Below are positions 12,104 to 13,954 of a DNA stretch of 64,000 nt, piece after piece. Each line of letters opens with the position of its first letter. The stretch's first letter is position 1. The notes below the pieces were generated by a model that worked only from the letters and a program-made list of their open reading frames with translations, did not search any database and was not told the origin of the DNA. Location of the stretch: NCBI GenBank assembly GCA_048887225.1, contig JBHLJY010000006.1, positions 78,238 to 142,237 of the forward strand. Direction: 5' to 3'. The DNA is from Candidatus Hodarchaeota archaeon (GTDB taxonomy: Archaea > Asgardarchaeota > Lokiarchaeia > Sigyniarchaeales > SOKP01). The translations under genes and the position numbers were made by a program.

Positions 12104-12601
12104 TTACGCGCCTCCCTCGTATTCTGGTTTATTAATCCATGTTTCATATTCATCTTCGGGTACAAAGAAGAAATCTGTCATTTTTCCTTCTCTTTCTTTC
12201 AAAAACACAGCCTTGACAACCCTGCCTTTCTTAATTTTCGATGGTACTAAGTTTTCCGAGAAAATTCCTTGAAGTAAAGCGGTGTCGGCTCCATCCAATT
12301 TAACAAAAGCTATGCCATATGGGATTGCTTTTATAAAAGCTGAAGTTGTGTACCAAACGATTGTACTCACTTCTATCTTTCCCGTTTGCTTCATTTCAAT
12401 CCAATTGGTAGGCTCATAACATTCAGAGCAGTTGATTCTTGGAGGCATCCACGTTTTTCCACATTTGGTACATTTTGTACCTAGGAGTTTTTTGTTGTTT
12501 TTTACTTCGATAAAGAACTTCGATTGGCCGCCCATGGTGTATTTGTAGTTAATGGCGATCCTGTCTCGGATTTCATGTGATTGAAATTTATCGTCATTCA
12601 T
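12104..12601 (-). CDS. DUF35 Zn-ribbon/OB-fold acyl-CoA-binding protein (thiolase partner)
   Basis: GTKCTKCG..MPPR..CSEC Zn ribbon, PYGIAFVKLDGAD OB fold; ATGA overlap with the thiolase stop codon. Confidence 0.9.
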   Translation of the reverse strand: MNDDKFQSHEIRDRIAINYKYTMGGQSKFFIEVKNNKKLLGTKCTKCGKTWMPPRINCSECYEPTNWIEMKQTGKIEVSTIVWYTTSAFIKAIPYGIAFVKLDGADTALLQGIFSENLVPSKIKKGRVVKAVFLKEREGKMTDFFFVPEDEYETWINKPEYEGGA

Positions 12602-13954
12602 GGCTTCTTCAACCCCTCTTCATTTGCCATTACAATAACGGCTGCATAAGCGGCTCCTGGACCTCCGATCGAATGAGCAATGGACCGACCTTTTTCAATT
12701 GTGACTTGGTGTTTGCCAGCATCTCCTCTAATCTGAAGAGCGGCCTCTCCTGTGCTCATTATACCAGTCGCGCCCACAGCATGTCCACAGCCAATTAAGC
12801 CTCCCGAAGGACAGCATGGCAATTCACCATTTAGCCAAGGACCTTCGCCGGGCTTTTCGAAAGAATTTTCAATCCAAGGACCGCCTTCTCCGAATGGTAC
12901 AAAGCCTAATTCTTCATAAGAAATTACTTCTTGACCGCTAAACGCATCGTGGAGCTCTGCAACATCGATTTGTTCCTTAATCTTGTTGTAGTCGAGCCCT
13001 GCCATTTTATAAGCTGCTTTAGCAGCTTCAATGTTTGAATAAAGCCGACCAATGCTCTCTCTGTTTCCGATAAAACAATCTGTATTTGCAGCAGCGACTC
13101 CGGTTATCCATGTAGGCTTTTCCACGCCGAGTTCTTTTACTTTTTGTTCGTTTGCAAGGATTAATGCGGCAGAAGCCTCGGAATAAAGACAGCAATCCAG
13201 GAGTTTGAAGGGATAACAGATAATTCTTGAGTACATAACGTCTTCGACGGTTACCTTCATTGGCGATTGAGCCTTTGGGTTGAGCAGAGCGTTCCCATGA
13301 TTTTTAATGGAAACCATAGCCATATAAGCCAAAAGTTGAAAATATTCAACTGATTGTTTGCTCTTCGGTCGGGTTTCCAAATTCTTTGTAATGTGCATTT
13401 ACCATAGAAACATATGAAGATGCCGCCATCATGCCCATAGGATATTTACGGAATATCGCGAAATGCGAATTAAATTCTTTCATAAGTCATATCCGCAGAA
13501 TAGGCAATGGCATTTAATACTTCTGGTGTTGTAACTCCTGTTTGCTAACGCTTTAAACTAAATATTTACAAGATTCGTCATAACAGTCGTTACATTTCTC
13601 CAAACCAATGCAGAGACACAAATCCGACAATCCAGATGCAACTTCAGCATAAGCCATTCTCACAGTATAACCTCCCGTTGCTCCGCCCGACGCAATTCTC
13701 GTGCCAGGTTTGTCATTCATGCCAAGATAACTATTAGTAAATATATCGGGCATGAATTGGCGTTCAAAAAGCTCATTATAAATTCCATAAACCGTGGACT
13801 GCAAATCTTTATGTATAATCTCTGCCCCGTTTTTATTTGCATCATCAAGAGCCAATCTAGTGGCATCAAACGCCAGCTCAAAATACGTTTTATCAAGATA
13901 CCTTGCTCTAAAAGGAGTAATGCCTACTCCGATTATCGCAACTCTATTTGGCAT
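12598..13954 (-). CDS. SCP2-type thiolase-fold protein, 4 exons: join(13954..13574, 13544..13479, 13444..13358, 13323..12598), 419 aa
   Basis: Removing three short inserts gives a continuous frame: ...GLEKCNDCYDE|QTGVTTPEVLNAIAYSADMTYE|YPMGMMAASSYVSMVNAHYKEFGNPTEEQ|MAMVSIKNHGNALLNPKAQ...; VAIIGVG, ELHDAF and SGGLIGCGHAVGATG motifs. Confidence 0.9.
13324..13357 (-). other. BHB intron 3 in thiolase mRNA (34 nt)
   Basis: Central helix GAGC/GCUU, bulges AA^A and AU^A, intron stem CAA/UUG plus AGUUGAA/UUCAACU; in-frame TGA; excision joins CAA|ATG. Confidence 0.88.
13445..13478 (-). other. BHB intron 2 in thiolase mRNA (34 nt)
   Basis: Central helix UAUG/CGUA, bulges AA^A and AA^U, intron stem GAAU/AUUC plus UCGC/GCGA; in-frame TAA; excision joins GAA|TAT. 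Confidence 0.88.
13545..13573 (-). other. BHB intron 1 in thiolase mRNA (29 nt)
   Basis: Central helix GACG/CGUU, bulges AA^U and AG^C, intron stem CUU/AAG plus UAAA/UUUA; in-frame TAA; excision joins GAA|CAA. Confidence 0.88.

What the first reader, a model, noticed from the sequence alone, without database searches (positions are those of the whole stretch)
12598..13954. Protein-coding gene with three bulge-helix-bulge introns: putative EndA-spliced multi-intron mRNA in a probable Asgard archaeon
SEEN: the thiolase is broken by three inserts clustered within 250 nt (13573-13545, 29 nt; 13478-13445, 34 nt; 13357-13324, 34 nt). I first placed the boundaries from protein continuity alone (YDE|QTG, TYE|YPM, EEQ|MAM). 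Independently, each junction pair folds as a BHB: a 4-bp exon/intron helix (GACG/CGUU, UAUG/CGUA, GAGC/GCUU), two 3-nt bulges on opposite strands, and an intron-internal stem. Cutting after the 2nd nt of each bulge reproduces all six boundaries. Exons are 381, 66, 87 and 726 nt and give a full-length 419-aa thiolase. KNOWN: archaeal EndA cuts BHB motifs at exactly this position and RtcB ligates; BHB introns are typical of tRNA/rRNA, and the well-established mRNA case is the single cbf5 intron of crenarchaea. INFERENCE: this is a spliced, not dead, metabolic gene with several introns, in the lineage closest to eukaryotes. I am not aware of a described equivalent. Automated annotation would call it a pseudogene.
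Basis: partly seen in the sequence, partly recalled or inferred. Interest (0 to 1): 0.97.

Follow-up and report, generated by a model that had tools for sequence, protein, structure and literature searches.

The report
Three tRNA-type introns in one gene
A thiolase-like gene of an Asgard (Promethearchaeota) archaeon is cut into four pieces by three 29-34-base inserts shaped like archaeal tRNA introns, and comparison with about 90 related copies shows the gene is under selection and readable only after the inserts are cut out of the mRNA, which papers I could search report for one archaeal coding gene (cbf5) with a single intron.

Summary
Exons on the minus strand (13954-13574, 13544-13479, 13444-13358, 13323-12598) join into an open 419-aa thiolase-family protein. 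All three inserts (29, 34, 34 nt) have a 4-bp helix between two 3-nt bulges, and cutting after the second bulge base restores the frame.

This is not chance and not decay:
- Most orthologs in other Promethearchaeota are uninterrupted and align without gaps at all three sites.
- Twenty-one others carry 29-32-nt inserts, up to four per gene. With this gene's, the inserts fall at about ten positions.
- With boundaries set by protein homology alone, the full helix is present in 20 of 23 cases, against 0-3 of 23 in decoy registers.
- Compensatory base changes preserve the stems.
- Codon changes specific to this lineage are 151 synonymous to 12 non-synonymous.
- Contigs from two other samples carry the inserts.
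- The genome encodes EndA alpha- and beta-like subunits and RtcB.
- Its only rtcB and uL11 genes carry the same kind of insert.

No RNA data exist for this locus, so splicing itself is inferred. I found no paper describing this beyond cbf5. This scan has noted the same phenomenon on other Asgard DNA, reportedly with RNA proof in two cases.

The parts
12598..13954 (-). Whole interrupted gene for a thiolase-superfamily protein: 1357 nt of DNA, 1260 nt after removal of the three inserts, 419 aa.
   Evidence: The closest intact ortholog is 96% identical in protein and hits Thiolase_N, Thiolase_C_1 and NF004720. The closest solved structure is archaeal acetoacetyl-CoA thiolase 6ESQ.
13574..13954 (-). 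Exon 1 (381 nt, 127 aa, ends ...CNDCYDE).
   Evidence: gap-free alignment to orthologs.
13545..13573 (-). Intron 1 (29 nt). Central helix GACG (13579-13576) with CGUU (13550-13547); bulges AA|U (13575-13573) and AG|C (13546-13544); inner stem CUU/AAG plus a 5-bp hairpin; outer exon helix CUGUU/AACAG. It contains an in-frame UAA.
   Evidence: No ortholog has an insert at exactly this position. Neighbouring positions 379 and 384 are occupied in other genomes.
13479..13544 (-). Exon 2, a micro-exon of 66 nt (QTGVTTPEVLNAIAYSADMTYE).
   Evidence: matches orthologs residue for residue.
13445..13478 (-). Intron 2 (34 nt). Central helix UAUG (13484-13481) with CGUA (13450-13447); bulges AA|A and AA|U; inner stem GAAU/AUUC. 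The outer helix is weak, so this is a relaxed HBh' form.
   Evidence: The same position is occupied in two other lineages (L135, L208) by unrelated intron sequences with helix UACG/CGUA. A contig from sample X2 spans it without any difference.
13358..13444 (-). Exon 3, a micro-exon of 87 nt (YPMGMMAASSYVSMVNAHYKEFGNPTEEQ).
   Evidence: orthologs.
13324..13357 (-). Intron 3 (34 nt), a textbook hBHBh' motif. Outer exon helix UGGAAACC/GGUUUCCA plus CCG/UGG; central helix GAGC (13363-13360) with GCUU (13329-13326); bulges AA|A and AU|A; inner stems CAA/UUG and AGUUGAA/UUCAACU.
   Evidence: The minimum-energy fold equals the BHB-constrained fold, -23.0 kcal/mol. Contigs from X2 and from X3 (another study) span it. 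The X3 variant changes G-C to G-U in the stem and one unpaired base.
12598..13323 (-). Exon 4 (726 nt including the stop, 241 aa, thiolase C-terminal domain).
   Evidence: PF22691, E = 1.5e-24.
12104..12601 (-). Downstream partner gene for a DUF35/ChsH2-type zinc-ribbon plus OB-fold protein. Its ATG overlaps the thiolase stop (ATGA), which suggests translational coupling to a fully read upstream message.
   Evidence: PF12172, PF01796.

Best explanation

Proposed mechanism:
1. The gene is transcribed with the inserts.
2. Each exon/intron junction pair folds locally into a 4-bp helix flanked by two 3-nt bulges.
3. The heteromeric splicing endonuclease (EndA alpha plus a beta-like subunit) cuts after the second base of each bulge.
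4. RtcB joins the four exons. The result is an mRNA for a 419-aa thiolase-superfamily protein, which probably works with the DUF35 protein encoded just downstream.

The gene is one case of a wider habit of this lineage, the Promethearchaeota (Asgard). In this lineage such mini-introns are gained, slide and are lost in many protein genes, and this gene is a hotspot.

Shown here: the anatomy, the register of the cuts, conservation and covariation, selection on the exons, presence of the enzymes, and presence of the inserts in DNA.

Inferred: the actual cutting and joining, and which enzymes do it.
For: (1) Geometry. All three inserts have the canonical helix and bulges at the one register that restores the frame and the conserved peptide.

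(2) Orthologs:
- About 90 copies were examined, and most are uninterrupted with gap-free junctions.
- Twenty-one others carry 29-32-nt inserts. With this gene's own three, the inserts fall at about ten positions (spliced nt 379, 381, 384, 444, 447, 458-460, 534, 542, 920, 924).
- One copy has four inserts (L223). Three inserts are seen in L135, L208 and this gene.

(3) Register test. With boundaries set by homology only, the full 4-bp helix is present in 20 of 23 instances, and at least 3 bp in all 23. Independent decoy registers give 0-3 of 23.

(4) Covariation:
- In the site-542 family, 92.5% of cells are paired against 17-47% when the partner is slid, and three pairs change on both sides.
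- At site 384 the helix is GAAC/GUUU or GAGC/GCUU.
- At site 447 it is UAUG/CGUA or UACG/CGUA.
- At site 458-460 three unrelated 5-10-bp hairpins occupy the same place.

(5) Selection:
- dN/dS against orthologs is 0.02-0.04, the same as between uninterrupted orthologs.
- Own-lineage codon changes are 151 synonymous to 12 non-synonymous, against 114:6 and 101:12 in intronless lineages.
- The exons carry no stop or frameshift.

(6) The inserts are real DNA. An X2 contig covers 13281-13524 without a difference. An X3 contig from another study covers intron 3 with structure-preserving changes.

(7) Machinery. There are two EndA paralogs. One has the Tyr/His/Lys catalytic residues and the other lacks the His. 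RtcB is present. A 2018 paper reports (alpha-beta)2 EndA with the L1 loop in Asgard archaea (PMC5829648).

(8) Genes that cannot be dead carry the same inserts:
- The only rtcB, split inside GGVGY|DINCG by 29 nt, with helix UUGG/CCAA and an 8-bp stem. The same split is present in congener G002.
- The only uL11, with two inserts.

(9) The genome is rich in tRNA introns. ARAGORN finds only 32 tRNA genes, 15 of them with introns, in a genome 98% complete.
Against: - There is no RNA evidence for this locus, so excision and ligation are not shown.
- Introns 1 and 3 sit at positions not shared with any other genome examined. Their own conservation cannot be tested, apart from the one strain variant of intron 3.
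- Intron 2 forms only a relaxed motif, 5.4 kcal/mol above the local minimum-energy fold.
- Pairwise dS is saturated. Selection is therefore measured over a long branch, and a very recent death of the gene cannot be formally excluded.
- The genome has about 14 thiolase-like paralogs, so this copy might be dispensable.
- Transcription and translation are thought to be coupled in archaea. How splicing precedes ribosomes is unexplained.
Confidence: 0.86

Rival explanations
1. The gene is a recently dead pseudogene. The three inserts are unspliced insertions, and the copy is decaying while its roughly 14 paralogs cover the function.
For: There are many thiolase-like paralogs in the genome. The closest relatives, at 96-98% protein identity, lack all three inserts. 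No RNA data exist.
Against: - 1260 nt of exon carry no stop or frameshift.
- Own-lineage changes are 151 synonymous to 12 non-synonymous.
- All three inserts carry the BHB motif at the frame-restoring register, which has a probability of about 0.002 each.
- The same kind of insert sits in the sole rtcB and uL11 genes.
- Twenty-one orthologs from other genomes have their own BHB inserts with intact exons.
- A strain from another study keeps intron 3 with a G-C to G-U change in its stem.
Confidence: 0.06
2. The inserts are skipped by the ribosome rather than removed from the RNA. This would be translational bypassing, as in phage T4 gene 60 or the 'byp' elements of yeast mitochondria.
For: The inserts are short (29-34 nt), contain hairpins and have a stop codon soon after the exon end, as bypass elements do.
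Against: - Bypassing needs matching take-off and landing codons. Here the pairs are GAA and UAG, GAA and AAA, CAA and UAU (read directly).
- The conserved feature is a helix between the 5' exon and the 3' end of the insert, with 3-nt bulges. This defines an EndA site and has no role in bypassing.
- Covariation keeps that helix.
Confidence: 0.02
3. The gene is a split gene. The pieces are translated separately (exon 1 as a 133-aa N-terminal half; exon 4, which starts with AUG, as a 241-aa C-terminal half) and assemble without exons 2 and 3.
For: Exon 4 begins with AUG GCU AUG. Exon 1 runs into a stop six codons into intron 1.
Against: - The AUG at the start of exon 4 is the conserved Met of EEQMA in uninterrupted orthologs, not a new start.
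- The two micro-exons stay in frame and match orthologs residue for residue.
- Losing 51 core residues would break the thiolase fold.
- This reading does not explain the BHB geometry.
Confidence: 0.03
4. The inserts are an assembly or sequencing artefact and are absent from the real DNA.
For: The genome is a metagenome-assembled genome. Related strains in the same samples lack the inserts (loose ends at 13574, 13544, 13532 and 13479).
Against: Independent contigs from sample X2 (no differences, 13281-13524) and from study P2 sample X3 (13279-13462) contain the inserts. Other assemblies from other studies carry analogous inserts in the same gene.
Confidence: 0.01

Closest known systems
BHB intron in the cbf5 (pseudouridine synthase) pre-mRNA of Crenarchaeota (Watanabe 2002; Yoshinari 2006; Yokobori 2009, PMC2738675)
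   Same: - A short intron inside a coding sequence, bounded by a bulge-helix-bulge motif that is often relaxed.
- Cut between the second and third bulge residues by a heteromeric (alpha-beta)2 splicing endonuclease, followed by ligation.
- Patchy presence and absence among related species.
   Different: - A different phylum (Asgard/Promethearchaeota) and a different gene (a metabolic, thiolase-like gene).
- Three introns in one message (up to four in an ortholog), with micro-exons of 66 and 87 nt.
- About ten alternative positions in one gene across relatives.
- Part of a set that includes rtcB and uL11 in the same genome.
- cbf5 has one intron at one position, and its splicing was shown by cDNA. 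Here RNA proof is lacking.
BHB introns of archaeal tRNA and rRNA genes, including the heavily interrupted tRNA genes of some Asgard classes (bioRxiv 10.64898/2026.10.13.758758)
   Same: The same motif, the same predicted enzymes, similar intron sizes, multiple introns per gene, and repeated gains at many positions.
   Different: The host is an mRNA, so the exon part of the motif is made of codons under protein-level selection. An unspliced copy also gives a truncated protein. That preprint deals with tRNA genes only: it has no occurrence of 'mRNA'.
BHB-bounded intron in the 5' UTR of Haloferax volcanii HVO_1309 mRNA (PMC7714728)
   Same: An EndA substrate in a messenger RNA, confirmed in vitro.
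   Different: It lies in the untranslated leader and does not interrupt the reading frame. It is a single case in a euryarchaeon with a homodimeric enzyme.
HAC1/XBP1 unconventional mRNA splicing in eukaryotes (Ire1 cleavage; RtcB or Trl1 ligation)
   Same: Spliceosome-independent removal of a short intron from a coding mRNA. Cuts fall in paired stem-loops, and the ends are joined by a tRNA ligase (RtcB in animals).
   Different: The endonuclease (Ire1) and the motif differ. It is a regulated stress switch in one mRNA. Nothing here shows regulation.

Membership tests
Archaeal BHB intron (EndA/RtcB-spliced) | [quoted passage not shown] | tested here: met
   GACG/CGUU, UAUG/CGUA and GAGC/GCUU, with bulges AAU/AGC, AAA/AAU and AAA/AUA.
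Archaeal BHB intron (EndA/RtcB-spliced) | Cutting after the second bulge base on both sides yields the functional joined RNA. | tested here: met
   The joined exons give an open 419-aa frame identical in register to uninterrupted orthologs. The homology-constrained register test gives 20 of 23, against 0-3 of 23 for decoys.
Archaeal BHB intron (EndA/RtcB-spliced) | Flanking helices: intron-internal (h') and exon-exon (h). | tested here: met
   h' is present in all three. h is strong for intron 3 (8 + 3 bp), moderate for intron 1 (5 bp and more) and weak for intron 2, which is a relaxed HBh' form.
Archaeal BHB intron (EndA/RtcB-spliced) | The structure is kept by compensatory change among homologous introns. 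| tested here: met
   The site-542 family has 3 double changes and 92.5% of cells paired. Sites 384, 447 and 458-460 also covary. Of this gene's own three introns, only intron 2 shares its position with others. Intron 3 has one strain variant, G-C to G-U.
Archaeal BHB intron (EndA/RtcB-spliced) | The host encodes a splicing endonuclease able to cut relaxed motifs, and an RNA ligase. | tested here: met
   Two EndA paralogs, one alpha with Y/H/K and one beta-like without the His. RtcB is present but itself interrupted. The broad specificity of Asgard (alpha-beta)2 EndA is taken from PMC5829648 and was not tested here.
Archaeal BHB intron (EndA/RtcB-spliced) | The intron is absent from the mature RNA (junction reads, circular intron). 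| not testable with these tools
   No RNA run holding the stretch was listed. The one read-laying run showed DNA contigs only.
cbf5-type pre-mRNA intron | Located in cbf5, at the codon of the catalytic Asp, in Desulfurococcales or Sulfolobales. | tested here: not met
   The host gene is a thiolase-superfamily gene of a Promethearchaeota archaeon.
Thiolase (acetyl-CoA C-acyltransferase) superfamily | Thiolase N- and C-terminal domains. | tested here: met
   PF00108, PF22691 and PF02803 on the 96%-identical intact ortholog; NF004720 at 296 bits, below its curated cut-off of 420. Exon 4 alone hits PF22691.
Thiolase (acetyl-CoA C-acyltransferase) superfamily | A nucleophile cysteine in the xCASG motif. 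| tested here: not met
   In the alignment of the closest intact ortholog to 6ESQ, the Cys of AACASG falls on Gly of ASGGATG. The same residues are visible by eye in this gene and in the relatives. The enzyme may therefore not be a canonical thiolase.
Translational bypass element (T4 gene 60, mitochondrial byp) | Matching take-off and landing codons flanking the skipped stretch. | tested here: not met
   The pairs are GAA/UAG, GAA/AAA and CAA/UAU.
Repeated mobile DNA element (MITE-like) | Several similar copies in the genome. | tested here: not met
   Each intron sequence matches only itself in the 3.27-Mb genome. Other hits are 22 nt or shorter, at chance level.

The most novel reading that the evidence does not exclude
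In this Promethearchaeota lineage, protein genes have a dynamic exon-intron structure: several mini-introns per gene, micro-exons, and repeated gain and sliding at hotspots. This structure is serviced by the tRNA-splicing enzymes.

The system would be wired into gene control. The ligase gene rtcB and the ribosomal protein gene uL11 need the same splicing, so the output of many genes, this one included, would depend on EndA/RtcB activity. rtcB would feed back on itself.
Probability: 0.2. Interest if true: 0.95.

Novelty: new variant of a known kind. Interest (0 to 1): 0.88.

Why it matters
In the papers I could search, endonuclease-spliced introns inside archaeal coding sequences are reported for one gene (cbf5), with one intron, in Crenarchaeota. 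A 2020 paper still calls it the only case (PMC7714728).

Here the closest archaeal relatives of eukaryotes show more:
- genes broken by several such introns, with micro-exons;
- many alternative intron positions in one gene across species;
- the same introns in indispensable genes, rtcB and uL11.

Three consequences follow:
1. Gene callers will label such genes as pseudogenes or fragments. That distorts metabolic reconstructions and completeness estimates for Asgard genomes.
2. Intron gain, sliding and loss in protein genes can be studied in a prokaryote.
3. It raises a testable question: how is splicing ordered relative to translation in a cell where the two are thought to be coupled?

Tried and rejected
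- **RNA evidence.** No RNA holder was listed for the stretch. The raw-read run X21 laid no reads at all, so it is no test.
- **Structure-only genome scan.** I looked for BHB motifs that fuse neighbouring ORFs of at least 70 codons. There was no enrichment over three decoy motifs (1279 ORF pairs against 1214-1293), because adjacent genes dominate. Stricter stems gave at most 27 against 17-18.
- **Paralog-based scan.** It found few sites. Its main hit, a roughly 1150-aa family 'split' in five paralogs, is simply adjacent HdrA-like and MvhD-like genes, not introns.
- **A wrong automated pick.** My first automatic choice of the BHB for the first uL11 insert was wrong. It was corrected using the G001 ortholog.
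- **Unresolved candidates.** Three weaker in-frame candidates (C4:35958, C17:45766, C26:16221) were left unresolved.
- **The 'TAA inside' a paralogous thiolase** at C6:74684-75352 is only the end of that gene.
- **Syntenic comparison.** Comparing the 64-kb window with G009 and G001 showed no further clear intron inside the window.
- **Rfam.** Only a sub-threshold chance hit.
- **Intronless twin.** I looked among metagenome contigs for an intronless twin of this allele, as a possible cDNA. The closest copy (97.6% protein identity) is only 78% identical in DNA, so it is another species.
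Full report
**1. What is in the sequence**

On the minus strand, 13954-12598, lies a gene whose reading frame is broken three times within 250 nt. Joined, they make a 419-aa protein.

The inserts are 29 nt (13573-13545), 34 nt (13478-13445) and 34 nt (13357-13324). None is a multiple of three. The first brings a UAA into frame six codons after exon 1.

Each junction pair has the following anatomy:
- The last four exon bases before a 3-nt bulge pair with four bases near the 3' end of the insert: GACG/CGUU, UAUG/CGUA, GAGC/GCUU.
- A second 3-nt bulge follows on the other strand.
- An intron-internal stem starts directly after the first bulge.
- The exon boundaries fall after the second base of each bulge.

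This is the register at which archaeal splicing endonuclease cuts, as stated for cbf5 in PMC2738675.

Folding without constraints recovers the motif to different degrees:
- Intron 3: recovered exactly, at -23.0 kcal/mol, with an 8-bp exon-exon outer helix.
- Intron 1: recovered with one extra pair (-15.5 against -17.4 kcal/mol).
- Intron 2: only partly recovered (-9.9 against -15.3 kcal/mol), so it is a relaxed form.

**2. Is it more than chance?**

A 4-bp helix plus a 3-bp inner stem at a fixed register was found in 4371 of 2,399,591 random exon/insert combinations of this genome, or 0.18%. Three out of three at the frame-restoring register is therefore far beyond chance.

A stricter test used orthologs. 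I fixed the allowed boundaries of every insert by protein homology alone, which left 1-5 positions each. I then asked whether the canonical register gives a full helix. It does in 20 of 23 instances, and gives at least 3 pairs in all 23. Six independent decoy registers, a parallel-pairing decoy and a mirror-topology decoy gave 0-3 of 23. The +2 shift gave 11 of 23, but it reuses three of the true pairs and is not an independent control.

**3. Whose genome, and what the relatives show**

The relatives are named 'Promethearchaeota archaeon' (Asgard, Loki-type) in their records. The genome is 3.27 Mb, 30.5% G+C, and 98% complete.

About 90 orthologous copies were examined, from 40 related genomes, the species-representative collection and JGI metagenomes.
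- Most are uninterrupted, 415-428 aa, and align without a gap at all three junctions.
- Twenty-one others carry their own 29-32-nt inserts. Together with this gene's, the inserts fall at about ten positions on the spliced coordinate: 379, 381, 384, 444, 447, 458-460, 534, 542, 920 and 924.
- Each has a helix and bulges that restore the conserved peptide.
- One metagenome copy has four inserts (L223). L135, L208 and this gene have three.

Intron 2 of this gene shares its position with L135 and L208. Their intron sequences are unrelated to it, and their helix is UACG/CGUA instead of UAUG/CGUA.

Covariation is plain:
- Five homologous introns at site 542 pair in 92.5% of cells, against 17-47% when the partner is slid by 1-3 columns. 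Three pairs change on both sides.
- At site 384 the helix is GAAC/GUUU or GAGC/GCUU.
- At site 458-460 three lineages have three unrelated 5-10-bp hairpins.
- The similar introns at 920 (L113, L209) and 924 (L135) suggest sliding.

**4. Is the gene alive?**

dN/dS of this copy against seven orthologs is 0.02-0.04 wherever it could be computed, the same as among uninterrupted orthologs (0.035). dS is saturated, however.

I also counted only the codon changes that are specific to this lineage, taking as ancestral the state shared by the sister copy and an outgroup. This gives 151 synonymous to 12 non-synonymous changes, all conservative. Two uninterrupted lineages give 114:6 and 101:12, and G001, which has two inserts, gives 108:12. 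A neutral sequence would show roughly three non-synonymous changes per synonymous one.

The gene's stop overlaps the start (ATGA) of a DUF35/ChsH2-type gene, the usual partner of archaeal thiolases.

One caveat on the name. In the alignment of the closest intact ortholog to 6ESQ, the nucleophile cysteine of thiolases is replaced by glycine, and the same residues are visible by eye in this gene and its relatives. The protein is a thiolase-superfamily member of uncertain chemistry.

**5. Is the DNA real?**

A contig from a second sample of the same study covers 13281-13524, which includes introns 3 and 2, without a difference. A contig from another study covers 13279-13462 with four differences. 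One of them turns a G-C pair of the intron-3 stem into G-U, and another lies in an unpaired base.

Loose ends at 13574, 13544, 13532 and 13479 come from related organisms, about 89% identical. In them the exons are joined directly, at the predicted boundaries.

**6. The machinery and other host genes**

The genome has two EndA paralogs of about 200 aa. One carries the Tyr, His and Lys of the active site. The other lacks the His and weakly matches a beta-subunit model. This fits the (alpha-beta)2 type with broad specificity reported for Asgard archaea (PMC5829648).

RtcB is present once, and its gene is itself interrupted:
- 29 nt split the conserved GGVGY|DINCG.
- The outer helix is CG/CG and the central helix is UUGG/CCAA.
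- The bulges are AUA and AAA, and the intron stem is a perfect 8 bp.

The same split is seen in a congener (G002). Twenty-five other relatives have an unbroken gene.

To look further, I compared 1.265 Mb of a congener (G001, contig C6) with this genome by protein homology only. This found:
- two inserts in the only uL11 gene: C4:65567-65594, a textbook motif with 7-bp outer and 8-bp inner helices, and C4:65628-65663, with helix AGGG/CCCU;
- one insert in an acyl-CoA dehydrogenase gene at C4:215764-215799;
- one insert in an unnamed gene at C18:43842-43873;
- in the reverse direction, about six to eight BHB-type inserts in genes of the congener.

The intron sequences are unique in the genome, so they are not a repeat family. 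ARAGORN finds only 32 tRNA genes, 15 with introns, in this nearly complete genome. This suggests many tRNA genes are too interrupted to be recognised and fits a 2026 preprint on Asgard tRNA introns.

**7. Mechanism and rivals**

The best reading is that the pre-mRNA folds into three local BHB motifs, EndA cuts each twice, and RtcB joins the four exons. I put this at about 0.86.

The rivals fare poorly:
- A recent pseudogene is contradicted by sections 2-4 and by the inserts in rtcB and uL11.
- Ribosomal bypassing lacks matching take-off and landing codons, and it does not explain a conserved exon-intron helix.
- Separately translated halves would discard two conserved micro-exons.
- An assembly artefact is excluded for introns 2 and 3.

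What is not shown is the RNA itself. No RNA run holds this stretch.

**8. Comparison with what is known**

The papers I could search report splicing of a coding sequence by this route only for cbf5 of Crenarchaeota: one intron, one position. They add an intron in the 5' UTR of a Haloferax mRNA (PMC7714728). The 2009 cbf5 paper says introns in other protein genes had been predicted but not confirmed (PMC2738675).

Eight full-text searches found nothing on mRNA BHB introns in Asgard archaea. The library lacks most subscription journals.

The mechanism is therefore of a known kind. New here are the phylum, the number of introns per gene, the micro-exons, the hotspot of positions, and the link to rtcB and uL11.

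**9. Earlier notes of this scan**

Other first-reader notes on this genome list the rtcB, uL11 and acyl-CoA dehydrogenase inserts, which I re-derived, and three more that I did not check.

Scan-wide, 398 notes in at least 103 genomes describe the same phenomenon. Two follow-ups report exactly spliced RNA in other Asgard genomes. I did not verify these, and they do not enter my evidence.

Noticed in passing
G000:C13:33458-33486 (+), in locus L024 about 1646-1674: The only rtcB gene (the RNA ligase expected to join BHB-cut exons) is itself split by a 29-nt BHB insert inside GGVGY|DINCG. The same split occurs in congener G002. Twenty-five other relatives are unbroken. The ligase message would need the ligase.
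   Followed up: yes
G000:C4:65567-65594 and 65628-65663 (-), locus L033: The single ribosomal protein uL11 gene carries two BHB inserts (28 and 36 nt) in its N-terminal domain. Removing them gives MSKKGKVVVKALVTGGSASGGPPIGPAVGPTGINIKD..., matching the unbroken G001 ortholog.
   Followed up: yes
G000:C4:215764-215799 (+), locus L178; G000:C18:43842-43873 (+), locus L177: A 36-nt insert (helix GGCU/AGCU, 7-bp stem) interrupts an acyl-CoA dehydrogenase gene. A 32-nt insert (helix AUGU/GCAU) interrupts a gene with no Pfam match. Both were found by homology to unbroken G001 ORFs.
   Followed up: partly
G001:C6 (LW40_45, JAHPZA01) near 396831, 165897, 441941, 862902, 877222, 1128441: The congener has its own BHB-type inserts of 28-32 nt in protein genes that are unbroken in this genome. 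The one near 396831 has 8-bp outer and inner helices. Host genes were not identified.
   Followed up: partly
window 13576-13954 region (exon 1, residues about 88-94) and all orthologs: The thiolase nucleophile cysteine (xCASG) is replaced by glycine (ASGGATG). This was seen in the alignment of the closest ortholog to 6ESQ and is visible by eye in this gene and its relatives. The protein may be a non-canonical member, comparable to thiolase-like partners of DUF35 proteins.
   Followed up: partly
G000:C8 about 60150 (-) and G000:C1 about 307830 (-): Two MvhD/FlpD-like genes downstream of HdrA-like genes have an in-frame TGA at the position of the Cys in the CNWCSYAGAD motif of their paralogs. 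They are selenocysteine candidates. In one paralog (C5:71731-75219) HdrA and MvhD are fused.
   Followed up: partly
whole genome G000: ARAGORN finds only 32 tRNA genes (15 with introns) in a genome 98% complete, so many tRNA genes are probably interrupted beyond recognition.
   Followed up: no
thiolase orthologs L113, L209 (site 920) and L135 (site 924); loops of many introns: Similar intron sequences (GAAUAUCA.UU.GAUAUU) sit 4 nt apart in different lineages, with different central helices. This looks like intron sliding. Many intron loops share AUUUAG or AAUUAG, which supplies stop codons. Neither point is explained.
   Followed up: no
L181 (Ga0114925_10063441) about 960-990: The closest metagenome ortholog (97.6% protein identity, 78% DNA identity) has a one-base frameshift in an A-run near codon 40, probably an assembly error.
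   Followed up: no
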